Source: an uncultured Lysobacteraceae bacterium
GTDB taxonomy: Bacteria > Pseudomonadota > Gammaproteobacteria > Xanthomonadales > Xanthomonadaceae
DNA: 64,000 nucleotides
Direction of reading: 5' to 3'
Assembly: GCA_936911875.1 (NCBI GenBank)
Contig: CAKZGB010000008.1
Location: 117,359-181,358, forward strand
The number at the start of each line of letters is the position of its first letter. Position 1 is the first letter of the stretch. This document shows, in pieces, positions 5,166 to 42,959 of this stretch. Below the pieces are notes generated by a model, which made no database searches, was not told the origin of the DNA, and worked only from the letters and a program-made list of their open reading frames with translations. The position numbers were made by a program, and so were the translations under genes.

Positions 5166-5657
5166 TGCAATAGGATAGGCGTACGGAAGCTGCCGATAAA
5201 GGGCTCGGCATTGCAATGTTTAAATGGGTGCCCCTGCAACTCCGGTATGGCCTTGATTCGTCGAGTCAGTTGGGCTTTGTGTAACGGAGTCTGAACATCA
5301 ATATTGGAGCCCGTCACTGTCCTGCGATATTCTGCGCTCTAGGCGGTAACGCCGTCTGCCAAACCCCCTTCCCCCGGGCCTGAGTACCTGGGATCACGTT
5401 GGGGGTTTTGCTTTGGCTGAAACAAGTCCTAAGGCAGATTCCCTTGACGATCCTCCGCCATCAATACGCGAACCCTGCTCAACTCGCCTTTGGAGTCGCC
5501 CCTGCGGATCCGCGGCGATACGATGCCTTCCGACGCATCTTTTTCATTGCAGCCAAGGCTCAGGCCGTAACGCCCGTAAAATAATAGATGAAACGGGAAA
5601 TAATAGATGGGGCCGAATCTGAACAGATCGCCGAAACCCTTTGTTTTTCAGTGCTAA

Positions 5658-5704
5658 ATTGGTCGGGACGGCCGGATTTGAACCGACGACCACTTGTCCC
5701 CCAG
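5658..5704. repeat. attL: 47-bp direct repeat identical to the 3' half of tRNA-Pro (partial tRNA copy)
   Basis: attggtcgggacggccggatttgaaccgacgaccacttgtcccccag is identical to 42880-42926. The flanks diverge immediately on both sides. Confidence 0.85.
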
Positions 5705-5792: not shown

Positions 5793-7007
5793 TCAGCGTA
5801 TTTTATCCACCTTTTCGAGCCTTTCTGACGGCTGAGCGGGCTCAACATAGGCCACGTCGTGATCATAAACAGCGGTCATTGCAGGCGTCCGGTGACCAGC
5901 AGCTTGTTGCTTGGCAGCGCGGTCTCCGGGGGTATCTGTAATGCCGCGATGCTTCAGCCCGTGGAGCTTCATGCCTGCCGGTATGACCCCTTGAGCGACA
6001 GCAGCGCTGCGGCACTTCTTCCAAGCGTCACTAAGGGCTGCGGACGTCAACGGCTCACCCGATAAATTGACGAAGAGCGGGCGAGACGCGCCAAATATAT
6101 TGACCTCGTTCTTGTTACGTGCCCGAACGGCCTTGCGATAGTCTTTCAACGCGGCGACAGCGGATTCGAGGCGGGCATTCCAGTGGGTTAAGGTCGGTTC
6201 GGATCCCTTTAGCCGCTCAGCATAGAGCCCCAATTCAGGGATACACGAAGCGTCCGTCAGCATGACCAGCTCTGACCGCCGCAGCCGGCACAAGTACGCA
6301 ATTTCCATGGCCGGCCAAAGGTACCCAGGGAAGGAATGCCGCTCACCCGGCGCTGCCCTGCGCCCCTCGGATCGAGTGCGGGATTTGATCCATGAGATCA
6401 GTCGCTCGTGGGCATCGCGGGTGGGCATACCATGTTGCCGCTTCTCCCGCTGGGTCTCAACGCCCTGGGCAATGTTCTGGACCATGTATCCGCGATTAGC
6501 AGCCCAACTGAATAGCACGCTTGAGTAGCTCTTGGCCGCGCGTCCCTTCGCCGGCATCGGGACGATTGCGCCCTCGGCGTTTGGCCTCCCGGCCGAGAGC
6601 ATATCAATTACCCGCTGCCAGAATGGGCGAGTCAATCGTTTGGGATCCAAGCTCCCCAGCCGCGCACCTGACTTCAATACCAGCTCGCAAATGGCCTTCC
6701 TGGAATAGCCGTAAGATGCCTGGGTTGCCGCGCCGAGTGAAAGGAAGTGGGGGCTTTTCGTAAATTCGTTGGCAAGCCAGTCGAGATCTCGTTTCGTCGA
6801 TTCGTGACGCGACTCCGCGATTGCATGGAGCTCAGAAAGCGTCGCTCCAGCCCCGGCAACCGTTAACGTCGAGGCCCTTCCGTCTTTCATGAGGCGAACA
6901 TACCAATACCTTCGCGATCGCTTCCAGTAGATGCCGTTCGGCAGCTTGGCTTGATCGATGTGCGACGGGATGGTTGGGTCGAATTTGCGTTTGCGTCCGC
7001 GAGTCAT
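5793..7007 (-). CDS. int: tyrosine recombinase / phage integrase
   Basis: 404 aa with the C-terminal catalytic region (HGLKHRGITD...AGHRTPAMTAVYDHD, ending in Y). Adjacent to the att repeat. Confidence 0.9.
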   Translation of the reverse strand: MTRGRKRKFDPTIPSHIDQAKLPNGIYWKRSRRYWYVRLMKDGRASTLTVAGAGATLSELHAIAESRHESTKRDLDWLANEFTKSPHFLSLGAATQASYGYSRKAICELVLKSGARLGSLDPKRLTRPFWQRVIDMLSAGRPNAEGAIVPMPAKGRAAKSYSSVLFSWAANRGYMVQNIAQGVETQREKRQHGMPTRDAHERLISWIKSRTRSEGRRAAPGERHSFPGYLWPAMEIAYLCRLRRSELVMLTDASCIPELGLYAERLKGSEPTLTHWNARLESAVAALKDYRKAVRARNKNEVNIFGASRPLFVNLSGEPLTSAALSDAWKKCRSAAVAQGVIPAGMKLHGLKHRGITDTPGDRAAKQQAAGHRTPAMTAVYDHDVAYVEPAQPSERLEKVDKIR

Positions 7008-8291: not shown

Positions 8292-8533
8292 TTCACAGCC
8301 TCCACGTCCGGCCGAGCAACCGGGTCGTTTTTCGCGGTGGGCGCCTGCAGGTCGGCGATTACAAGGCGAGCGGCGGCCAGTTGGGTCTCGAGGTAGGACG
8401 CCCTGCCCTTGTAGTGAGCGACGGCGGCGTTCGCAAAACTCAGCTTCGACCGATACCACTCGGCATCCCGCTCAAGCGCATCGACGCGGCTGGCCGGCAC
8501 GTAGCCGAAGTACGACATCAGATGTTTGATCAT
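8288..8533 (-). CDS. hypothetical phage early protein (coiled-coil)
   Basis: 81 aa, coiled-coil-like, with 4-nt overlaps to both neighbours. Confidence 0.45.
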   Translation of the reverse strand: MIKHLMSYFGYVPASRVDALERDAEWYRSKLSFANAAVAHYKGRASYLETQLAAARLVIADLQAPTAKNDPVARPDVEAVK

Positions 8534-8760
8534 CGCGAAGCCTCCCGCAGGATCTTGCGGCCCGCTGCAATGGCGAAGGCGGTCGAGCGGCCTTCAACCT
8601 GTAGGGTTCGAAGGGCGGCATGGATGGCCTGATGACGGATGGAGTTGGACACCCCTGCCCTAGTGGCGGCCGTGCGGACCGCTGTGATGGCGGTGCTGGC
8701 CTGGGCGAGGTTGATGACGCTGGCAGTGCAGCGTGCCTGAAGCTGTTGAGCGTGACCCAT
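8530..8760 (-). CDS. hypothetical phage early protein
   Basis: 76 aa, first gene of the leftward early operon. GAGGG SD lies 9 nt upstream, inside the hairpin stem. Confidence 0.4.
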   Translation of the reverse strand: MGHAQQLQARCTASVINLAQASTAITAVRTAATRAGVSNSIRHQAIHAALRTLQVEGRSTAFAIAAGRKILREASR

Positions 8761-8786
8761 AAAAATGCCCTCGAAAGTGAGGGCAT
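8761..8786 (-). terminator. hairpin + U-tract (rho-independent terminator-like) ending the cI operon
   Basis: On the minus strand: ATGCCCTC-ACTTTC-GAGGGCAT followed by TTTT, running directly into the ATG at 8760. Confidence 0.5.
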
Positions 8787-8840
8787 CCGGCGCCAGCCGA
8801 GGGGGCGACTAGCGCCGGGTGCCCATCAGGCGGGTGCCTG

Positions 8841-8891
8841 ATGGGTTAATTAAACGTGGTGTTTATTCAAATGTCAACATGTTGTTTACTC
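8841..8891 (-). promoter_or_regulatory. PL-like promoter with CI operator palindrome
   Basis: On the minus strand: TTGACA (8877-8872), a 17-bp spacer, then TTTAAT. The spacer contains TAAAC-GTGGT-GTTTA (8851-8865), the same 15-mer as at PR, plus an extra GTTTACTC half-site at 8884-8891. Confidence 0.45.
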
Positions 8892-9620
8892 CCCGGTCTG
8901 AGGATAGTCCCCCGAGTCCTCTAGCCAGGTTCGAAAGTCCTGCTCTTCCTGGCTGGTGATTCGAGGCTTGAGATTGCTAACGCGGTCCCATGCAGCATCA
9001 ATTCGTTTGGCCTCCTCTGGACTTGCAAGCGCCTTGCGCCGCATGAAAACCCACCAGTTCAGCTCCACCAAATTTGGGATGAAGCTCGCCCGCAATGGAT
9101 ACGGTTCTTCCGGTGGCAACCATCCGTTTACTTTTGGTGACTCCGAGAACTCGAGTTCAATCCTCTGCTCCCATTCTGTGTTCAATGGTCGACGACCACT
9201 TCCCATGGCAATAGCGTAGGCAGCAGTTTTGCAACGCATGAGATATCGACCAGGAACAGCAGCCAGAAGGGCTTCATAGCCCTCATTTGATCCGGATTTG
9301 TAGTCAGAAATGCTAATTTTCCGGCAGCGGCTTTGGGCCCACTCATGCAACTCTTCATCTGAAACACCGGACATTGCCGATATTTGCTTTGCAAAATGGC
9401 ACATCTTGGCAACTTCACGATGTCGAAAGCCGCGAATCGTTGCAGTGAAGAATGCCACTGCATCAAATGCCTTTATGCCGTCCCCAAGCTGGTCCTCGAT
9501 CTTTCGACGTAATTCGAGCCATCGATCGAGACTATTCGGTTCAGATATGAAAGAGCTCATTGAAAGGGACCCCAGTAAACTGTCACGGCAAAATGGAAAC
9601 GGCTCGCATGCTCGAGCCAA
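8886..9620 (-). CDS. hypothetical protein (244 aa), low-GC cargo downstream of cI
   Basis: ORF directly downstream of the repressor on the same strand and upstream of the terminator hairpin. Visibly lower GC than the flanks. No recognisable motifs. Alternative start at MSSFISEPN (9563). Confidence 0.55.
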   Translation of the reverse strand: MARACEPFPFCRDSLLGSLSMSSFISEPNSLDRWLELRRKIEDQLGDGIKAFDAVAFFTATIRGFRHREVAKMCHFAKQISAMSGVSDEELHEWAQSRCRKISISDYKSGSNEGYEALLAAVPGRYLMRCKTAAYAIAMGSGRRPLNTEWEQRIELEFSESPKVNGWLPPEEPYPLRASFIPNLVELNWWVFMRRKALASPEEAKRIDAAWDRVSNLKPRITSQEEQDFRTWLEDSGDYPQTGE

Positions 9621-9650
9621 ACCTTGGTCTACGCACAGATGTTCATAGAC

Positions 9651-10343
9651 CTAGATCATTCGCTTGATCGACACGTTAACAAGTACACGACCACCGATGA
9701 TCATCTCTTCCGGCGCAGGAAAGTCAGGATAGGCCTTGTTTGTGCTGACAACGTAGAGCTGGTCTCTTGCTTGCAATATCTTGAACTGGGCGCCGTGACC
9801 TGTATTGATCAGGTATACCCCGTCACCATCAAAGTGGGTAATCGAAGTATCAACCCATGCGACTTCCCCGGACTCGAGCACGCCAGGAAGTGAATCCCCT
9901 CGACCCGTCATCAACTTCACGCGCCCCGGCGCCGGTAGGAATCCGACCTTCTTTCGTACTTCGTGCTCGCTGACTTCCAAGATGTTTACCACTTCTGGGA
10001 AGTCTTGATTAATAACTGGTCCACCCATGCCTGCCACCCCATCGATCTGTTCAAGTCGAACGTAGCCGTCTGGCGTTTCATTGCTTGAGACTGAATCCAG
10101 CAGCTCCGTGCCGATGCCTTCAAACACGTAAACCGGATTGATCCCTTTCACGGCAGCAAAGCGTAGAGACGCTTCGGCAGATACGCCGCGGCGCTTCCAA
10201 TTGTTTGCGCTTTGCGGCGTGGCATCGATCCAGGCTGCGATCTCCGTTTGATTTACATCGGGCTCAATCGCACGGGCCGCGTCCAGCAGCCGCTGAAAAC
10301 TTGGATGGGTAGTGTTTTCTTCCATGGGTTTAGTGTGAAACAT
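9651..10343 (-). CDS. cI: CI-like prophage repressor (HTH_XRE + S24 LexA-like peptidase)
   Basis: N-terminal HTH (QTEIAAWIDATPQSANNWKRRG). C-terminal S24 signature GDSL(PG) Ser and the downstream Lys (VSIKRM). Divergent from a cro-like gene. Confidence 0.8.
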   Translation of the reverse strand: MFHTKPMEENTTHPSFQRLLDAARAIEPDVNQTEIAAWIDATPQSANNWKRRGVSAEASLRFAAVKGINPVYVFEGIGTELLDSVSSNETPDGYVRLEQIDGVAGMGGPVINQDFPEVVNILEVSEHEVRKKVGFLPAPGRVKLMTGRGDSLPGVLESGEVAWVDTSITHFDGDGVYLINTGHGAQFKILQARDQLYVVSTNKAYPDFPAPEEMIIGGRVLVNVSIKRMI

Positions 10344-10406
10344 TCCGTTTACTCTTTGTTACACGCACTGTTGACTTTTATATAAACGTGGTGTTTACTT
10401 TCTTCC
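10344..10406. promoter_or_regulatory. OR/PR/PRM-like switch region between cI and cro
   Basis: TTGACT (10371-76), a 17-bp spacer containing TAAAC-GTGGT-GTTTA (10383-10397), then TTTACT (10394-99). The cro ATG follows 7 nt later, so the transcript is near-leaderless. An additional GTTTACTC half-site sits at 10347-54. Confidence 0.5.
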
Positions 10407-10640
10407 ATGAACGAATTAAACGAATCCATGGAGCGACATCCCGACGCCGAACTCATAGATCAACTGGGCGGATCAAAGACCGTCGCGGAACTATGTGGCT
10501 TCAACGGCGTCGACGGAATTCGCCGGGTCAGTAACTGGCGCCGCCGCGGGATCCCGGCAGCGATTCGATTGGCGCACTTGCATCTCTTTGGAACGACGGG
10601 GAATGCCTGTAAGTCAGAGCGTGAGGACGCAGCGGCATGA
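10407..10640 (+). CDS. cro: Cro/YdaS-like DNA-binding protein
   Basis: 77 aa divergent from cI. The VSNWRRRGIPAAIRLAHL motif is typical of YdaS/Cro-family HTH proteins. Confidence 0.6.
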   Translation: MNELNESMERHPDAELIDQLGGSKTVAELCGFNGVDGIRRVSNWRRRGIPAAIRLAHLHLFGTTGNACKSEREDAAA

Positions 10641-12807: not shown

Positions 12808-15192
12808 ATGACCCAGAACTACGTTGACGTCCTCGATCAGCTCCGCTCCGCCGGGCTGATCCTCGATAGCCTCGATACCTCGGGGCGCATGAAGCGTTGC
12901 AAGGTCGAAGGCGACCGCGAGCATCGCGGCTGGTATGTGCTGCACGAGATCCGCACCGATGACGGAACCGACCTGATCGTCGGGTCGTACGGGATATGGC
13001 GCGGGAACGATGCCGGCACTCAGAAGGTCAAGCTGACAAAGGCCGCCATTACTGCGGAACAGCGGGATGCGATCAGGCAACGCCAGCGGCAAGACCGCCA
13101 GCGTGCGGAACGCGAACGCCAGGAGACTGCAACTCGTGCTGCGGACCGGGCGCGTGAAGCATGGCTCAAGATGGTGGAGCAAGGCTCGAGCCAATATCTG
13201 GCACGAAAGGGCGTGTCGGGACACGGTGTGCGCTACTCGCCTACCACCGGCGCCCTGGTAATTCCGATGATCGATGTCGGCGGCCACATTCACGGCTTGC
13301 AGATCATCCGTGACAACCCGGCGCGTGATCAGCGTGAAAAAGAGTACTGGCCACGCGGCTTGTCCAAGCAAGGCCACTTCCACCTCATGGGCGGCGTGCC
13401 ATCAACAGTGCTGTTGCTGGCCGAAGGATATGCCACGGCGGCGAGTCTGTTTGAAGCCACCGGGTACCCGGTGGCAGTCGCGTTTGACGCCGGCAACCTG
13501 GTGCCCGTGGCCACGGCGCTGCACAAGAAATACCCGTACGCAAAGATTCTGATCTGCGCAGACGACGACCGATTCCAAAAGTGCCGCGGATGCAACTCGC
13601 CGGTCGACCTGGTGAGTGACCCCGCCGACTGTCCCACGTGCGGCAGCCAGCACAAAGCGACCAACGCAGGGGTCGGCGCCGCAAGCGCTGCTGCCCTGGC
13701 TGCTCATGGTGCGTGGTTGGCGCCACGGTTTGGCGACGAGGAGAAGGTGCGGCAGGACTTCATTGAGCGCGGCCGCAAGCTAACAGACTTCAATGATCTA
13801 CATGTACGCGAGGGCCTGCAGGCCGTCCGTGCTCGAGTGGAATCCCAACTCACGGAGCTCCAATGGAATGTTCCATCAAGCCACCACGCTACACCGACAA
13901 TTGAGGGGGGCGGGGTCCGAACTCTGACCCCTATTGATAGCCTTCCCGAGCTGCTTGAGCGCTATGCCGTGATCTACGGCGCCGGGGGCTATGCATTCGA
14001 CTTCCGCGACCGAATGATCGTCAAGCTCGGCGATGTTCGGGACGCATGCTTGAACAGCCAAACGTACAAGTGGTGGATGGAACGTCCCGACCGGCGCCTG
14101 GTCTACCAGAACCAAATTGGATTTGATCCTACCGATCGGGATCCGAACATCGTTTGCAACTTGTGGCACGGCTGGCCGACTGAGCCCAAAGCCGGTTACT
14201 GCGCGAATCTGCTGAACCTGCTGAGCTACTTGTGCAGCGCCGATGAAAATGCGGATGAGCTGGCCGACTGGTTGCTTAAGTGGATCGCATATCCGCTGCA
14301 GCATCCCGGCGCCAAGATGAAAACCACTGTGGTGATGCATGGCCCGCAAGGCACCGGCAAGAACTTGCTGTGGGAGAGCGTCATGGCGATCTACGGAGCG
14401 TACGGCAACGTGATCGGTCAGGACGCGCTCGAAGACAAATTCAATGACTGGGCATCGAAGAAACTCTTTATGGTCGCCGATGAAATCGTCGCGCGGCAGG
14501 ATCTGTACCACGTCAAGAACAAGCTCAAGACGCTGATCACCGGCGATCAGATCCGGATCAACCCGAAGGGCTCCATGAGCTACGTGGAACGAAACCACGT
14601 GAACTTCGTCTTCCTCTCGAATGAAACCGTGCCGACCGTGCTGGAAGAAGACGATCGGCGCCACTGTGTCATCTGGACGCCGCCGCGGCTCGAACCAAGT
14701 TATTACCAGGCAGTCCTGGACAACATCGCTAAGGACGGCGTCGCGCATTTGCACGACTATTTGCTCACGGTCGATCTCGAGGACTTCGGCCCGGGCACAC
14801 TTCCGCCAAAGTCGGAGGCGAAGGGCAAGCTAATCGATCAGTCGATGGATTCAACGGCTCGGTTCGGACATGCGTTCGTGGCCGGCGAGTTTGAGCGTCT
14901 ACGCCGGCGCCCGTGCCTGGCACAGGACATGTACAACCTCTACCGGTCGTATTGCCGGGCCCAAGGACTGCGTGAGATGCCGCAACCCCGGCTGCTGAAT
15001 GTGCTCGATCGGCGGTTCGGGTCGCGACCGGCACGCAAGCGGTGGCAGTCCGACTATGACGTGAAGCAATCGTCGGTGCTGATGTGGGACTTTAGCCCAC
15101 CGGAGGGATCCGACGAACGAACCTGGTTAGGGGCTGAAATCACGGCATTTCACAATGCGGTCAAGGACTACCTGGGGGGACAGAGTGGTTAA
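12808..15192 (+). CDS. P4-alpha/D5-type primase-helicase (TOPRIM + zinc ribbon + SF3 helicase)
   Basis: TOPRIM (LLLAEGYATAASLFEATGYPVAVAFDAGNL), zinc ribbon (CRGCNSP..CPTCGSQH) and Walker A (VVMHGPQGTGKNLL). 794 aa. Confidence 0.9.
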   Translation: MTQNYVDVLDQLRSAGLILDSLDTSGRMKRCKVEGDREHRGWYVLHEIRTDDGTDLIVGSYGIWRGNDAGTQKVKLTKAAITAEQRDAIRQRQRQDRQRAERERQETATRAADRAREAWLKMVEQGSSQYLARKGVSGHGVRYSPTTGALVIPMIDVGGHIHGLQIIRDNPARDQREKEYWPRGLSKQGHFHLMGGVPSTVLLLAEGYATAASLFEATGYPVAVAFDAGNLVPVATALHKKYPYAKILICADDDRFQKCRGCNSPVDLVSDPADCPTCGSQHKATNAGVGAASAAALAAHGAWLAPRFGDEEKVRQDFIERGRKLTDFNDLHVREGLQAVRARVESQLTELQWNVPSSHHATPTIEGGGVRTLTPIDSLPELLERYAVIYGAGGYAFDFRDRMIVKLGDVRDACLNSQTYKWWMERPDRRLVYQNQIGFDPTDRDPNIVCNLWHGWPTEPKAGYCANLLNLLSYLCSADENADELADWLLKWIAYPLQHPGAKMKTTVVMHGPQGTGKNLLWESVMAIYGAYGNVIGQDALEDKFNDWASKKLFMVADEIVARQDLYHVKNKLKTLITGDQIRINPKGSMSYVERNHVNFVFLSNETVPTVLEEDDRRHCVIWTPPRLEPSYYQAVLDNIAKDGVAHLHDYLLTVDLEDFGPGTLPPKSEAKGKLIDQSMDSTARFGHAFVAGEFERLRRRPCLAQDMYNLYRSYCRAQGLREMPQPRLLNVLDRRFGSRPARKRWQSDYDVKQSSVLMWDFSPPEGSDERTWLGAEITAFHNAVKDYLGGQSG

Positions 15193-15213
15193 TGTGTCAC
15201 CAAAATTCAGTGT

Positions 15214-15597
15214 TGTGCAGCATGGTGTGCGGCATCTGTGCGGCATGGTGTGCGGTATCTGTGCAGCATCTTGTGCGGCATGCTGTGCGGTATCTGTGCG
15301 GCATCTGTGCGGTATGGTGTGCGGTATCAAAACCGCTGCCGGTGCGGCTGTGCAGCATGTGCGGCATCCCGCGCACCTGTGCACACGTGCGCAGGCGCGT
15401 GCGTATACCCGCGCGTATGTGCGTGTGCCCGCGCGTACGCATGCCGCACATGGTGCACAGGCCCGTCACTGCGCGGTTTCATGCTGCACAGCATGCTGCA
15501 CAACGTGCTGCACACCGGCACCTGATGCTGCACAGATCCGCAGGGTCACGCGCGCGAACCCATTTTCTTTTTTGCTGAAAGAAAAAGTGGTGGTGGG
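15214..15597. repeat. iteron array / putative phage replication origin region
   Basis: About 12 tandem copies of TGTGCRGYAT(C/GG) at 11-12-bp spacing (15214-15370), then CCCGCGCGTA x2 and (A/C)TGCTGCACA x4, then an AT-rich tract. Non-coding 400 bp directly after the primase-helicase gene. Confidence 0.6.
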
Positions 15598-18530: not shown

Positions 18531-18561
18531 GCAAAAGCCTCGATCCTATGGTCGAGGCTTT
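18531..18561. terminator. bidirectional hairpin terminator
   Basis: AAAGCCTCGA-tcctatgg-TCGAGGCTTT, a perfect 10-bp stem. Overlaps the stop of the antisense DUF3800 gene and follows the Mor-like gene. Confidence 0.5.
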
Positions 18562-19433
18562 GGGCTATCTGGGCTCGGATAAATTTTGAGGCCCCATCCA
18601 TGGTAGCCCTTCCCAACGCGGGACCGTCCGCCTTCGCAATAAAATTTCTTCTTCAGAGCTTCGAAAGCTCGATTCTTGATGGATTGCTCCGGGTTGAAAA
18701 CCGCAAGCCCGATTGGACGCGCAACTAGGTCCGCTAATTGCAGCCCAGAAGAAAGTGCAGATTTCGTGATGATCTTAATGTCAAACATGTATCGAATGCG
18801 GTGTCGGTTCTGACCATCACAGATGCGTCGGAATTCTAACTCCAGACCGTGGTCCATATCTTTTCCTCTCCCTTCCACAACTACATAGGTCAGCTTGTTT
18901 TGCTCCGACTTCTCACATAGAAAGTCGTAGAGCGTTTCCATGCAATGTTGGAGCCCAATTCGATACGCATTTGTCGTCTCAGCGTCCCGTGCGTTTACGC
19001 GGCGCTTGTCAATGACGCAACTAATGAGGATGAAATTGCAGCGCTTAACAATTGCACCAAGGCTCGCCATGAAGGACTCGTGTTCATCTTTTGACTTAAA
19101 AAAGTTGAACGGTGGCTTGCGCTTGCGAATCTCGGACTCGTGCAGATTTACCTGATCATGCCCAAAGTACTTAAATTTAAATCGCTGCAATCGAGGGATC
19201 ACTTCCCGGCAGTAGTGCCCCTTGTGAAAAACGCAAAAAGCAAGGCAAAAAACCGGGTATCGATCCTCGTACTTTTTTAGAGGGTGGTGCCCAGACTCGT
19301 CAACGTAAACTACGTACTGCCCAAACTCGATGCCCTCAGCTCTAGAGACGTCCGATCTTTCGGTGCTCGCTAGCTGCCTGAGGGGCAACGATAGCTGGGT
19401 CTCTCGCCGCTGACGATTCTTCCGTCGCGTCAT
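18546..19433 (-). CDS. DUF3800-family protein (moron cargo)
   Basis: Both DUF3800 signature motifs are present: DES (YVDESGHHP) near the N-terminus and QxxD (LQLADLVA) near the C-terminus. AT-rich, antisense to all flanking structural genes, with its own flanking hairpins. Confidence 0.75.
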   Translation of the reverse strand: MTRRKNRQRRETQLSLPLRQLASTERSDVSRAEGIEFGQYVVYVDESGHHPLKKYEDRYPVFCLAFCVFHKGHYCREVIPRLQRFKFKYFGHDQVNLHESEIRKRKPPFNFFKSKDEHESFMASLGAIVKRCNFILISCVIDKRRVNARDAETTNAYRIGLQHCMETLYDFLCEKSEQNKLTYVVVEGRGKDMDHGLELEFRRICDGQNRHRIRYMFDIKIITKSALSSGLQLADLVARPIGLAVFNPEQSIKNRAFEALKKKFYCEGGRSRVGKGYHGWGLKIYPSPDSPKPRP

Positions 19434-40166: not shown

Positions 40167-41033
40167 GTGCTGGATCAAAAATCAGTCGATGACCTAATCG
40201 ATGCGGATTCAGATCGCGATTTTATAGTTATTAGCGATCGCATTTCCCGCGAACTCCACTATCGACTTAGCAGAGCATTAGAGAAACAATCCTCAAATAG
40301 TCGCTGCACCGTTTTCCTCACAACGTGGGGAGGTGATCCGGATGGAGGCTATCGAATAGCGCGCTGCCTGCGCCACTACTACAAGGATGGCATTCGTCTG
40401 GTAATCCCTAGCTGGTGTAAAAGTGCCGGCACTCTCATCGCTATGGGTGCTGACGAGTTGGCCATAGGAGATCTCGGAGAGTTAGGTCCCGTAGATATTC
40501 AGGTTCTAAAGGGCTCGGAACTGGAGGAGCGTAGTAGCGGTCTTGATATTCAAGAGGCTGTCGCGGTAATCGAGAAAGAAGCAAAGGACATGTTCGTCGC
40601 CGCGTTACATGAGATTAAAGGTATGGGTCTTTCTACCAAACTTTCCGGCGAATTTGCTGCCCAAGTTACTGCTGCGCTAGTCGCACCGATCGCTTCACAG
40701 ATCGACCCGATCCGTCTCGGAGAAATGAACCGCGCTACAAGGATCGCGCATGAATATGGTGCGCGACTCAGCGGTAGATCGGGTAACCTTAAGCCTGGGG
40801 CGATTGCATATCTGATCACAAAATACCCAACTCACAGTTTTGTGATTGATCGCCTTGAAGCCAAAATACTGTTCAATCGAGTCAGCAACATGAACAGCCC
40901 CGAGACGGTTTTCTGTGACAAGAATTGGGGTATCATTGGCGAGCCAAATGATACAGTGCTTGTATTGACGCGGTCTCAGCCCAACATCGCCGCGGTTCCG
41001 ACGCAAGCAGTATCCACTACGACGAGCGCATGA
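40167..41033 (+). CDS. ClpP/SppA-fold (S49/SDH-like) serine protease
   Basis: GTG start after AAGGGGA. TTWGGDPDGG...IPSWCKSAGTLIAMGADELAIGDLGELGPVD resembles the ClpP/SppA Ser region. Low GC. Confidence 0.55.
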   Translation: MLDQKSVDDLIDADSDRDFIVISDRISRELHYRLSRALEKQSSNSRCTVFLTTWGGDPDGGYRIARCLRHYYKDGIRLVIPSWCKSAGTLIAMGADELAIGDLGELGPVDIQVLKGSELEERSSGLDIQEAVAVIEKEAKDMFVAALHEIKGMGLSTKLSGEFAAQVTAALVAPIASQIDPIRLGEMNRATRIAHEYGARLSGRSGNLKPGAIAYLITKYPTHSFVIDRLEAKILFNRVSNMNSPETVFCDKNWGIIGEPNDTVLVLTRSQPNIAAVPTQAVSTTTSA

Positions 41034-41699: not shown

Positions 41700-42269
41700 T
41701 TATTTCAATGCGCGCATTAACTCGGCCCTCTTCTTGTTGAAGTTCGTGTGGTAATAGTTTGCAGCTTCGTAGCTCATTCCGTACTGCTCGCTGATTGTGA
41801 TCGCGCAATCTACAACAAGCGCCCGCTCGATCGGGGCAAGTAAGCCCGCAGCGAATGTATTGGCTTGCCACTCAGGATCCTGATACCGCGGAACTGACTC
41901 TGCCGGCATTGCGAGACGGTGGTACCCCTCCCTGCAGTGCATTGCCAAGTGGCCAAACTCGTGCGCTACAGTGAATCTCGATCGACCATCAGAACGTTCA
42001 GCGCCTTCGTACGTCGAGCGACTTAACACAATTCCACTCCCATCAGGCCGCGTAAAGCCTAACGATCCCGCCATCTCATAGTCTTCATACACTTCGAGAT
42101 TAAACACTCTGCCGTCGGGTGAAATTCTGTGTTCGAGCACATCAATCAAATCAATTTGCTGATTGTCCTCGACGTAAGCTCGACGAATGCTCTGCGCCAA
42201 CAAGTAGATTTGCACCGTACTCAACGGCGGAACTACATAATTCGCATTTCCTAAAGCGAAATTGCTCAT
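41700..42269 (-). CDS. ImmA/IrrE-family zinc metallopeptidase (DUF955/COG2856-like)
   Basis: HEXXH motif VAHEFGHLAMH. Directly downstream of an XRE HTH gene. Confidence 0.7.
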   Translation of the reverse strand: MSNFALGNANYVVPPLSTVQIYLLAQSIRRAYVEDNQQIDLIDVLEHRISPDGRVFNLEVYEDYEMAGSLGFTRPDGSGIVLSRSTYEGAERSDGRSRFTVAHEFGHLAMHCREGYHRLAMPAESVPRYQDPEWQANTFAAGLLAPIERALVVDCAITISEQYGMSYEAANYYHTNFNKKRAELMRALK

Positions 42270-42271
42270 TA

Positions 42272-42637
42272 CTACTCCTTTGGCGTTGTTAGTTGATTCA
42301 AAAGTGCGGAAATGTCTGCAGACTCAAGCTGCTCGTATCGGCGTGCAAAGGCAACTGCCAGCTCGCGTGCGCGAGCGTCCGGATTAGTTCGAACAGAAAT
42401 TGAAACCTCTTTTACGGTTTCAATTGCAAGTCGATCGAGCTCTGCCGCTGTAGCATGATCAAGTTGCAGTTGTTCGGTCAACCGCGAGACAAAGTCCGGC
42501 GGCACTGGCTTGCGGCCTGTTTCCAATGCTGAGATGTACGCCACGCTGAGTCCGAGCTTCTTTGCCAGCTCCCCGAGCGTCATCCGATCACGTTCGAAGC
42601 GAACCCTTTTTAGGGCGCTACCAAACTTGTTCAACAT
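42272..42637 (-). CDS. XRE-family HTH transcriptional regulator
   Basis: HTH MTLGELAKKLGLSVAYISALETGRK. Forms an operon with the ImmA-like peptidase. Confidence 0.7.
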   Translation of the reverse strand: MLNKFGSALKRVRFERDRMTLGELAKKLGLSVAYISALETGRKPVPPDFVSRLTEQLQLDHATAAELDRLAIETVKEVSISVRTNPDARARELAVAFARRYEQLESADISALLNQLTTPKE

Positions 42638-42881
42638 GCGTATTCCTCCGTAGGGGATTGATTCAGCCTGCCCCCGTTTCGCCAGGCTGCCAACCGGCTC
42701 AAATGCCGATTTGAACCAATCCTACACCCAATGGGAGAACATTTCAACCAACGGGAAGAAAAGACGAAAACTGGCGTCGAAATTTATCCCGACTTTTATC
42801 CAGCCCGATATTTCTGAACGAAATCGCAAGCCAACAAAAAAGCCTTTCCCAATGATATCAATCACTTAGAAAAGGCTTGAT

Positions 42882-42959
<78 letters not shown>

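What the first reader, a model, noticed from the sequence alone, without database searches (positions are those of the whole stretch)
8761..10343. rexAB-like arrangement: unknown 244-aa low-GC gene co-transcribed downstream of the CI repressor and closed by a hairpin/U-tract
The cI gene (9651-10343, minus) is followed on the same strand, after 28 nt, by a 244-aa ORF (8886-9620) with no recognisable motif. The GC content drops from ~9700 to ~8890. The ORF is followed by a strong hairpin + U-tract (8761-8786). The pair would therefore be expressed in the lysogen from the maintenance promoter. This mirrors lambda cI-rexA-rexB and other superinfection-exclusion or defence genes carried in immunity operons. 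The hairpin also buries the GAGGG Shine-Dalgarno of the first leftward early gene (ATG at 8760), which suggests it has a second role in gating early-left expression.
Basis: partly seen in the sequence, partly recalled or inferred. Interest (0 to 1): 0.7.

Follow-up and report, generated by a model that had tools for sequence, protein, structure and literature searches.

The report
Unknown gene riding with prophage repressor
A prophage carries, between its CI repressor gene and its leftward operator and promoter (where lambda keeps rexAB), a gene from a rare, unannotated protein family that turns up beside unrelated prophage repressors elsewhere, so it is a good new candidate for a lysogen-expressed defence or sensor gene, though its function is untested.

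Summary
Window 8530-10640 is a lambda-type immunity region of a ~37-kb prophage in tRNA-Pro. It reads: cro-like gene, OR (three TAAAC-N5-GTTTA operators 23 bp apart), S24-type cI, gene "X", OL (two operators) with PL, a three-hairpin leader, then the early-left genes.

Three corrections:
- The hairpin and U-tract lie downstream of PL. The X stop codon sits inside OL2, so this terminator also faces PL transcripts.
- The low-GC block covers cI as well as X.
- X most likely starts at ATG 9560 (224 aa).

Short forms lie directly downstream of unrelated repressors in other prophages. Long forms carry WYL, BRCT, SHOCT or zinc-ribbon domains. Related prophages lacking X hold other cargo at this slot.

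Best reading: a lysogen-expressed accessory gene of a new family, probably for exclusion or sensing. Function and co-transcription are inferred, not shown.

The parts
10407..10640 (+). cro-like gene (77 aa), divergent from cI
   Evidence: It matches phrog_8008 'DNA binding protein' at 6.6e-17. Its ATG lies 7 nt after the PR -10 hexamer, so the mRNA may be leaderless (inference).
10371..10399 (+). PR: TTGACT-17-TTTACT
   Evidence: This is the best plus-strand promoter match in 10300-10450, at 9/12. It is overlapped by OR1 and OR2.
10383..10397 (.). OR1 operator TAAACGTGGTGTTTA
   Evidence: It is an exact palindromic half-site pattern, identical to OL1.
10360..10374 (.). OR2 operator TACACGCACTGTTGA (2 mismatches)
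   Evidence: It was read from the sequence. It is centred exactly 23 bp from both OR1 and OR3, and it overlaps the PR -35 just as OL2 overlaps the PL -35. Assignment is by inference.
10337..10351 (.). OR3 operator GAAACATTCCGTTTA, covering the cI ATG (10341-10343)
   Evidence: It has 1 mismatch to TAAAC-N5-GTTTA.
9651..10343 (-). cI repressor (230 aa), LexA/CI-type self-cleaving
   Evidence: It matches Peptidase_S24 and phrog_4. By eye the sequence shows AG at 'GVAGMG', 'GDSL' and 'FKIL'. The closest relatives are only 35% identical.
9600..9619 (-). weak terminator-like hairpin GGCUCG-AGCAUG-CGAGCC followed by GUUUCCAUUUU, in the cI-X spacer
   Evidence: The terminator scan found it. The stem is -11 kcal/mol. 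The region is not significantly structured (z -1.3). It is a possible attenuator, or nothing.
8886..9560 (-). gene X (224 aa from ATG 9560; alternative TTG 9620 gives 244 aa): X domain at residues ~10-145 plus a unique helical C-terminal ~80 aa
   Evidence: Public gene calls give 224 aa. There are 37 distant homologues. The AF2 model has pLDDT 85 overall and >95 for residues 10-140. No family-library hit was found.
8874..8888 (.). OL2 operator (TAAACAACATGTTGA on the minus strand), containing the X stop codon and overlapping the PL -35
   Evidence: It has 1 mismatch to the operator pattern. Positions were read.
8851..8865 (.). OL1 operator, identical to OR1
   Evidence: There are 5 pattern matches in the window against 0.43 expected, and 0 of 100 shuffles reached 5.
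8849..8877 (-). PL: TTGACA-17-TTTAAT, with predicted start near 8842
   Evidence: At 11/12 it is the best sigma-70 match on the minus strand of 8700-10450.
8822..8845 (-). leader hairpin 1 (10-bp stem, -19 kcal/mol); the PL start falls in its 5' arm
   Evidence: It is a unique palindrome in the window.
8787..8818 (-). leader hairpin 2 (13-bp stem, -24.9 kcal/mol), abutting hairpin 3
8761..8786 (-). leader hairpin 3 plus U-tract: an intrinsic-terminator-like element that also sequesters the GAGGG SD of the next gene
   Evidence: It forms with P >= 0.99 for every 5' end tested.
8530..8760 (-). first early-left gene (76 aa)
   Evidence: It is called in public assemblies. It is 49% identical over 35 aa to the first early-left gene of the heteroimmune relative L100.

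Best explanation
Shown from sequence:
- This is a lambda-type genetic switch with the order cro, OR1-3, cI, X, OL1-2/PL, three-hairpin leader, early-left genes ending in int.
- X fills the whole space between cI and OL. Its stop codon lies inside OL2.

Inferred regulation:
- X is transcribed with cI from the maintenance promoter, and from any establishment promoter.
- The transcript must run through OL/PL and stop at the third leader hairpin (8761-8786).
- Transcripts from PL meet the same hairpin, which also hides the ribosome-binding site of the first early-left gene. Early-left expression therefore needs read-through, processing or antitermination.

Shown about the protein:
- X belongs to a rare, unannotated family defined by a ~125-aa all-alpha domain.
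- The domain has fixed motifs F(F/Y)T.TRGF..RE and IA.GSGR(K/R)P.

Inferred function:
- The domain is probably a diverged TerB-like helical fold in which TerB's two acidic DG...E motifs have become basic. It would then bind an anionic ligand such as a nucleotide, nucleic acid or phosphoprotein, not a metal.
- It has no catalytic signature, so it would act as a sensor or adaptor rather than an enzyme.
- It recurs next to unrelated prophage repressors, it is fused elsewhere to WYL, BRCT, SHOCT and zinc-ribbon modules, and its distribution is patchy. From these, its most likely role is a lysogen-expressed conflict protein for superinfection exclusion or abortive infection. It would work like the rexAB or bstA slot genes without being related to them.
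For: Switch anatomy:
- The operator pattern occurs 4 times within 1 mismatch, only at the two expected places, with a fifth phased site at OR2. OR sites are 23 bp apart.
- PL scores 11/12 and PR 9/12, each overlapped by operators in the same way.
- No promoter candidate serves X.
- The terminator-like hairpin 3 is part of the most stable RNA segment of the prophage.

Family:
- phmmer over 1.84 billion representatives gave 37 relatives at E 5e-18 to 7e-4, all over residues ~20-145.
- A114 and R123 are invariant and G120, S121, G122 nearly so.
- AF2 with that alignment gave pLDDT 85.

TerB link:
- hmmsearch against PDB hit 2jxu (TerB) at E 0.009.
- hhalign gave 67-68% probability, E 5e-5, and aligned both motif pairs.

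Context:
- P0005 lies 20 nt after an S24 cI that shares only 25% identity with this one. That phage is related: its first early-left gene is homologous, and its X also sits between cI and its own OL/PL.
- P0006 follows an HTH_3 repressor divergent from a P22_Cro gene.
- P0029 follows a weak HTH gene divergent from a YdaS-like gene and is followed by BrnT/BrnA.
- P0002 is directly upstream of a gene I read by eye as an integrase (no family search was run on it), and P0018 directly downstream of a zinc-ribbon/TM2 gene. That gene is 44% identical to the one that follows cI in a Stenotrophomonas prophage.
- WYL was found in homologues (Pfam in 6; PADLOC WYL models in 16-21), and BRCT in 2.

Patchiness:
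- X is absent from phage S1, from 91 loci with cI relatives and from 50,697 phage records.

Precedent:
- bstA and rexAB sit in this slot and presumably share the repressor promoter (PMC8585504).
Against: - There are no expression data. A weak hairpin and U-rich tract sit between cI and X. bstA-type genes can have their own start sites.
- No defence-library model hits X.
- The contexts were found by searching for X, so 'always next to a repressor' is biased. It rests on 3-4 independent informative loci. Several WYL-fused homologues sit on short contigs with uninformative neighbours: TetR, DUF6998 and a BRCT gene.
- X is better conserved (36-44% identity) than the adjoining repressors. That would also fit a core lysogeny function.
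- The TerB relation is only moderately supported. Pfam TerB is not hit, and TerB's defining acidic motifs are absent.
- A terminator placed after PL is awkward. If it is efficient, the phage needs an antitermination mechanism I could not find. If it is weak, cI-X transcripts would leak into xis/int.
Confidence: 0.5

Rival explanations
1. X is a lysogeny or induction regulator rather than a defence gene. It would be co-expressed with the repressor and sense a stress or DNA-damage signal, helped in relatives by WYL or BRCT modules. It would modulate repressor activity, prophage induction or the lysis-lysogeny choice, in the way ImmA partners ImmR or RexB modulates lambda physiology.
For: - X is kept next to three unrelated repressor types and is more conserved than they are.
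- WYL domains in characterised regulators sense ssDNA or DNA damage (PMC11662680 and PMC12041258, listed).
- BRCT modules are fused to X or adjacent to it.
- One X homologue lies between a coiled-coil gene and what looks by eye like an integrase gene, the core of a lysogeny module.
Against: - The window's X lacks a WYL domain.
- The window's CI already has an S24 self-cleavage module and needs no helper.
- X is absent from related prophages: S1, the Stenotrophomonas rhizophila prophage and 91 cI-relative loci. It is therefore dispensable for this type of switch.
- There is no HTH or protease signature.
Confidence: 0.22
2. X is a lysogenic-conversion gene that benefits host physiology, such as stress, metal or envelope tolerance in the manner of TerB-family proteins. 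It would have no role in phage-phage conflict or in the switch.
For: - The fold is possibly TerB-like.
- Ter clusters give tellurite, colicin and oxidative-stress phenotypes as well as phage inhibition (PMC12054061).
- The slot is simply a well-expressed place for any cargo.
Against: - TerB's acidic metal-binding motifs are replaced by basic ones.
- No other ter genes lie nearby.
- The fusion partners (WYL, BRCT) and neighbours (BrnTA, SocA/Panacea) point to nucleic-acid or conflict biology.
Confidence: 0.13
3. X is not part of the immunity operon. The hairpin at 9600-9619 terminates cI transcripts, and X is expressed from an unrecognised promoter during lytic growth as an early gene.
For: - A terminator-like hairpin with a U-rich tail lies in the cI-X spacer.
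- The start codon is uncertain. ATG 9560 has only a weak GGGG 9 nt upstream, and TTG 9620 has AAGG only 1 nt upstream.
Against: - The spacer is not significantly structured.
- No promoter-like site can serve X.
- In the related phage L100 the homologue starts 20 nt after cI with a good GAGG SD.
- X lies upstream of PL, so neither early promoter transcribes it in the sense direction.
Confidence: 0.1

Closest known systems
Lambda cI-rexA-rexB immunity operon
   Same: The position is the same: accessory cargo on the cI strand, between cI and OL/PL, in a switch with a tripartite OR and an OL. It is presumably transcribed from the repressor promoter in lysogens.
   Different: - This is one soluble protein, not a sensor plus a 4-TM channel, and it has no sequence or fold relation to RexA or RexB.
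- From my own knowledge, lambda's t_imm lies before OL. Here there is no room, because the stop codon is inside OL2, and the first terminator lies after PL in the PL leader.
BstA of Salmonella prophage BTP1 (Owen et al. 2021, PMC8585504)
   Same: Both are single-protein families found directly downstream of diverse prophage repressors, with some members outside prophages. BstA is the best precedent for reading repressor linkage as a sign of lysogen-expressed abortive infection.
   Different: - There is no homology. No defence-library model matches X at E <= 1, but I did not check that the library includes BstA.
- X has none of the N-terminal DNA-binding domain I recall (from memory) for BstA.
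- No aba-like self-immunity element has been identified. The cI-X spacer repeats are untested.
TerB family (PF05099; PDB 2jxu) and TerB-like folds (2ou3, 2h5n)
   Same: - Both are all-alpha domains of similar size.
- The profile-profile alignment covers 81 columns and puts X's two conserved motifs on TerB's two motifs.
   Different: - Pfam TerB is not hit.
- The acidic D-G...E pairs are replaced by R-G-F..R-E and G-S-G-R.
- No ter operon is present.
- The relation is only ~67% probable.
WYL-domain sensor proteins (CapW, BrxR, DriD, PafBC)
   Same: Most X-family members carry an N-terminal WYL-like domain. In characterised proteins this domain senses ssDNA or other ligands and controls defence or damage responses.
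   Different: - Those regulators are wHTH-WYL-WCX proteins.
- X-family proteins have no HTH and carry X after the WYL domain.
- The window's protein has no WYL domain at all.
Structured lambda PL leader (nutL and the RNase III hairpin before N) and HK022-type put RNAs
   Same: Stable hairpins lie immediately downstream of PL and before the first early-left gene, and the SD is sequestered. The lambda and HK022 comparison rests on my own knowledge.
   Different: - Rfam gives no match.
- There is no second copy downstream of PR.
- The first early-left protein shows no Arg-rich N-like motif.
- The third hairpin looks like a terminator placed before any gene.

Membership tests
Lambda-type (CI/Cro) immunity region | LexA/CI-type repressor with an S24 self-cleavage domain | tested here: met
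   Peptidase_S24 at 5.6e-8, above the Pfam cut-off, and phrog_4 at 5.5e-29.
Lambda-type (CI/Cro) immunity region | Divergently transcribed Cro-like gene across a shared operator region | tested here: met
   The gene at 10407-10640 (+) matches phrog_8008 at 6.6e-17. Only 63 bp separate it from the cI ATG.
Lambda-type (CI/Cro) immunity region | The same operator sequence repeated at OR and OL, overlapping PR and PL | tested here: met
   TAAAC-N5-GTTTA occurs at 8851, 8874, 10337 and 10383, plus a phased site at 10360. There are 5 matches against 0.43 expected.
RexAB | Two-gene system: a RexA sensor plus a RexB polytopic membrane channel | tested here: not met
   There is a single ORF between cI and OL. 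The AF2 model is a soluble helical protein with no transmembrane segment evident. No defence-library model matches.
RexAB | Location between cI and OL/PL on the cI strand | tested here: met
BstA | Sequence homology to BstA | tested here: not met
   No PADLOC model matches at E <= 1, though I did not confirm the library includes BstA, and there is no Pfam domain. Only the genomic position is shared.
TerB (PF05099) | Match to the family model at the curated threshold | tested here: not met
   No Pfam TerB hit for any of 32 X domains, even at E <= 10.
TerB (PF05099) | Remote profile and fold similarity | tested here: inconclusive
TerB (PF05099) | Paired acidic D-G-x3-E motifs | tested here: not met
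   The aligned positions in X are R-G-F-x2-R-E and G-S-G-R.
WYL-domain proteins | Presence of a WYL domain | tested here: not met
   The window protein has none. Among homologues, 6 of 38 match Pfam WYL and 16-21 of 38 match PADLOC or PHROG WYL-type models.
Intrinsic (Rho-independent) terminator | GC-rich stem-loop immediately followed by a U-tract | tested here: met
   The element at 8765-8786 has a 6-8 bp stem (-13.3 kcal/mol) followed by UUUUUAU. The tool's own scan did not list it, perhaps because A-U and G-U pairs extend the stem into the tract. Function cannot be tested here.
put / nut antitermination sites | Match to known RNA families, or paired copies downstream of both PL and PR | tested here: not met
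   Rfam gave no match at E <= 1. No copy of the leader exists elsewhere. No significant structure lies downstream of cro.

The most novel reading that the evidence does not exclude
The X domain is a previously unrecognised ligand-binding module: a TerB-like helical fold with a basic rather than acidic pocket. Together with WYL sensor domains in its longer relatives, it would define a new single-gene conflict system. Prophages would carry the stand-alone form in the repressor operon as a new type of lysogen-expressed abortive-infection or exclusion protein, or alternatively as a repressor-independent induction sensor. In this prophage its expression could additionally be coupled to CI occupancy of OL, because RNA polymerase must cross OL2 and OL1 to finish the gene and reach a terminator.
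Probability: 0.3. Interest if true: 0.7.

Novelty: new member of a known kind. Interest (0 to 1): 0.5.

Why it matters
The interval between the repressor gene and PL is one of the few places where prophage genes are reliably expressed in lysogens. It has already yielded rexAB and bstA. A third, unrelated family that keeps this address beside heteroimmune repressors is a well-defined candidate for a new defence or sensing function, and it is easy to test by deletion and plating. The family has no annotation in Pfam, PHROGs, NCBIfam or PADLOC. Its predicted fold has no close solved relative. Its fusions to WYL and BRCT modules offer a handle on what it senses. The unusual layout is also a small open question in how such switches keep lysogenic and lytic transcription apart: the stop codon lies inside OL2, and a terminator shared by the immunity and PL transcripts sits before the first early gene.

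Tried and rejected
- **No public match.** DNA and protein searches of 50,697 phage records found nothing for the region or for X.
- **Word-indexed protein searches failed.** The search found only X itself. Run with the family alignment, it scored only 8000 candidates and returned 2 proteins.
- **Single-sequence AF2 was useless**, at pLDDT 41.
- **No structural match.** Foldseek against PDB and BFVD gave nothing at E <= 0.001. The afdb50 library was unavailable.
- The alignments had no stretch conserved enough.
- **Motif scan gave false positives.** A back-translated IA.GSGRKPI pattern in IMG/VR returned 3 chance matches in non-coding frames.
- **Early-left genes gave no IMG/VR relatives**.
- **A put- or nut-like reading of the leader was rejected.** Rfam gave no hit, there is no second copy, and nothing structured follows cro.
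- **Promoter-specific refolding was rejected.** I tested whether PL-initiated RNA refolds to avoid hairpin 3. It forms with P >= 0.99 for all 5' ends.
- **The GAPS2 and DNA-ligase hits are not about X.** They come only through the BRCT and WYL parts of homologues.
- **Selection on X could not be assessed.** The only close relative (L002) has no difference across the X gene, the cI-X spacer and the OL/PL/leader region (window 8761-9650) and a single substitution in cI.
- **Host identity was not established.** Exact-sequence look-ups gave no names. The nearest terminase is Stenotrophomonas phage S1 at 58%, and the nearest cI is in a Stenotrophomonas rhizophila prophage at 35%.
Full report
**Setting**

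The window holds a ~37-kb prophage. It is bounded by a 52-nt direct repeat at 5653-5704 and 42875-42926. The right copy is the 3' end of tRNA-Pro(GGG). The integrase (5793-7007, minus) ends a string of small leftward genes.

Public metagenome assemblies contain the same element (L001, identical). They also contain a variant, L002, that is 98.7% identical from int to just right of cro but only 84% identical in the replication and packaging genes. L002 has no difference across X, the cI-X spacer and the OL/PL/leader region (8761-9650) and a single one in cI (10311). The flanks carry 7, 20 and 40 differences.

**Checking the observation**

- cI (9651-10343, minus) is an S24-type repressor.
- A 244-aa ORF (8886-9620) follows on the same strand.
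- Gene callers, and the only database entry (P0001, 224 aa), start it at ATG 9560.
- The named hairpin exists: AUGCCCUC-ACUUUC-GAGGGCAU at 8765-8786, then UUUUU, then the ATG of a 76-aa gene. The GAGGG Shine-Dalgarno lies in the 3' arm.
- GC is indeed low. X is 51.3% and cI 53.2%, against 59.2% for the prophage and GC3 of 62-77% in neighbouring genes. cI and X therefore form one low-GC block. This argues against X being a separate later insertion.

The 14-mer AAACACCACGTTTA occurs exactly twice in 64 kb, at 8851-8864 and 10383-10396. As the palindrome TAAAC-N5-GTTTA (1 mismatch allowed), it marks 8851, 8874, 10337 and 10383. It gives 5 matches in the window against 0.43 expected, and none of 100 shuffles reached 5.

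At OR the sites are centred 46 bp apart. A 2-mismatch copy (10360-10374) sits exactly between them, giving a tripartite OR with 23-bp phasing. OR3 covers the cI ATG. OR1 and OR2 overlap PR (TTGACT-17-TTTACT).

At OL, OL1 and OL2 overlap PL in the same way. PL is TTGACA-17-TTTAAT, scores 11/12, and is the best minus-strand promoter in 8700-10450.

The X stop codon (8886-8888) lies inside OL2. X therefore fills the cI-OL interval completely, which is the rexAB position. It also means no terminator can precede PL.

This segment has z = -7.7. It is the most stable 100-nt window of the prophage on either strand, at -60.5 against a mean of -31.3 (sd 6.9).

**Regulatory reading (inferred)**

- No promoter-like site can serve X.
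- The cI-X spacer has a weak terminator-like hairpin that is not significant on folding.
- The simplest model is a cI-X transcript that crosses OL/PL and ends at hairpin 3.
- PL transcripts meet the same element. It forms with P >= 0.99 whatever the 5' end, so promoter-specific refolding is excluded.
- I found no put- or nut-like device: Rfam gave no match, there is no second copy, and nothing structured follows cro.
- Either hairpin 3 is leaky or processed, or an unknown factor overrides it. This remains open.

**The protein**

Pfam, PHROGs, NCBIfam and PADLOC give nothing for X. An exhaustive phmmer search of 1.84 billion cluster representatives gave 37 relatives (E 5e-18 to 7e-4). All match over residues ~20-145.

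The alignment shows the motifs F(F/Y)T.TRGF..RE and IA.GSGR(K/R)P. A114 and R123 are invariant.

With this alignment AF2 gives pLDDT 85, and above 95 for residues 10-140. The domain is an eight-helix bundle. A less confident helical C-terminal ~80 aa is unique to this protein.

There is one consistent lead, to TerB:
- An X-only profile hits TerB (PDB 2jxu) at E 0.009.
- hhalign against TerB gives 67-68% probability (E 5e-5) over 81 columns.

In the hhalign alignment, TerB's two acidic motifs (SDGvssEE and KSDGn) fall on X's RGF..RE and GSGR. I therefore regard X as probably a diverged TerB-like fold with a basic pocket. It would be a binder of an anionic ligand and not an enzyme. This is an inference.

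**Relatives and their neighbours**

About two thirds of the relatives carry an N-terminal WYL-like domain. Two add a C-terminal BRCT domain. One has a membrane anchor and SHOCT. Two have a zinc ribbon. All library hits of these proteins come through those extra domains, never through X.

The short, WYL-less forms are the informative ones:
- **P0005** starts 20 nt after an S24 cI gene that is divergent from a Cro/YdaS gene (L100-L102). That phage is a true but heteroimmune relative. Its first early-left gene is homologous. Its cI shares only 25% identity, in the protease part. X is 37% identical. Its own operators (AGCC(C/G)GGCT) flank cI-X, and its PL again lies just after X.
- **P0006** follows an HTH_3 repressor divergent from a P22_Cro gene.
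- **P0029** follows a weak HTH gene divergent from a YdaS-like gene, and precedes BrnT/BrnA.
- **P0002** abuts a gene I read by eye as an integrase; no family search was run on it.
- **P0018** follows a zinc-ribbon/TM2 membrane protein. That protein is 44% identical to the gene sitting 22 nt after cI in a Stenotrophomonas rhizophila prophage.

Conversely, X is absent in three places:
- Stenotrophomonas phage S1. It is the closest terminase relative at 58%. Its repressor is followed by an unrelated small gene and opposite-strand cargo.
- All 91 loci with distant cI relatives. Their cI-downstream slot holds lipoprotein-like genes, zinc-ribbon/TM2 genes or nothing.
- All 50,697 phage records.

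**Interpretation**

The arrangement is a genuine analogue of cI-rexAB, and still more of cI-bstA. bstA is a single-protein family whose hallmark is its place downstream of diverse prophage repressors, in a known mosaic hotspot (PMC8585504).

X is not a member of either family. Four things favour a conflict or exclusion role over a core switch function:
- its patchy distribution;
- its independence from repressor type;
- its modular fusions to WYL and BRCT;
- its toxin-antitoxin and membrane-protein neighbours.

The regulator and host-fitness readings remain open. The contexts were found by searching for X, so they are biased and few. Nothing here shows expression or phenotype.

**Verdict**

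- The finding is a new, unannotated member of a known kind: cargo in the repressor operon.
- Interest is moderate (0.5). It would rise if a phenotype is found, or if the TerB-like basic-pocket domain proves to be a new sensor module.

Noticed in passing
window 15203-15374 and 15441-15514: There is an array of about eight 11-12-nt iterons (TGTGCGGCAT-like), with inverted copies about 190 nt downstream. It lies immediately after the primase/DUF5906 gene (12808-15192). It is probably the phage replication origin.
   Followed up: no
window 5653-5704 and 42875-42926; tRNA-Pro(GGG) 42882-42958: A 52-nt direct repeat (96%) marks the prophage ends (attL and attR). The right copy is the 3' end of tRNA-Pro, and the integrated element is about 37.2 kb.
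   Followed up: partly
window 41700-42637 (-) and 40167-41033 (+): Cargo sits at the right end of the prophage. An Xre-type HTH gene (121 aa, identified by eye) is directly followed by a Peptidase_M78/COG2856 (ImmA/IrrE-like, HEFGH) gene. There is also a ClpP-like SDH-type serine protease. This is a second regulator/protease pair in a prophage that already has an S24 CI.
   Followed up: partly
window 18546-19433 (-): A DUF3800 gene lies on the opposite strand just after the large terminase. In the related element L002 this position holds a Dam-type (MethyltransfD12) methyltransferase instead, so it is another variable cargo slot.
   Followed up: no
window 10341-10343 and 10394-10409: The PR -10 hexamer ends 7 nt before the cro ATG. 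OR3 covers the cI ATG, and neither has a good SD. Both cro and cI mRNAs may be leaderless, as lambda cI is from PRM. This is an inference.
   Followed up: no
L100 3499-3879 (-): In the heteroimmune relative, a 126-aa hydrophobic (membrane) protein gene lies on the opposite strand between PL and the first early-left gene. It is absent from the window and is another variable insertion next to the immunity region.
   Followed up: no
L003 6692-7042 and L113 66-518: A zinc-ribbon + TM2 membrane protein family (44% identity between the two) sits 22 nt downstream of cI in a Stenotrophomonas rhizophila prophage. It also sits directly upstream of an X homologue elsewhere. It is a second candidate repressor-linked cargo family.
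   Followed up: partly
window 8761-10310 compared with L002: The immunity module (X, OL/PL and leader, and most of cI) is identical between two prophage variants whose flanking early genes differ at 1-7% and whose replication and packaging genes differ by 16%. This suggests recent exchange or a sweep of the immunity cassette.
   Followed up: partly
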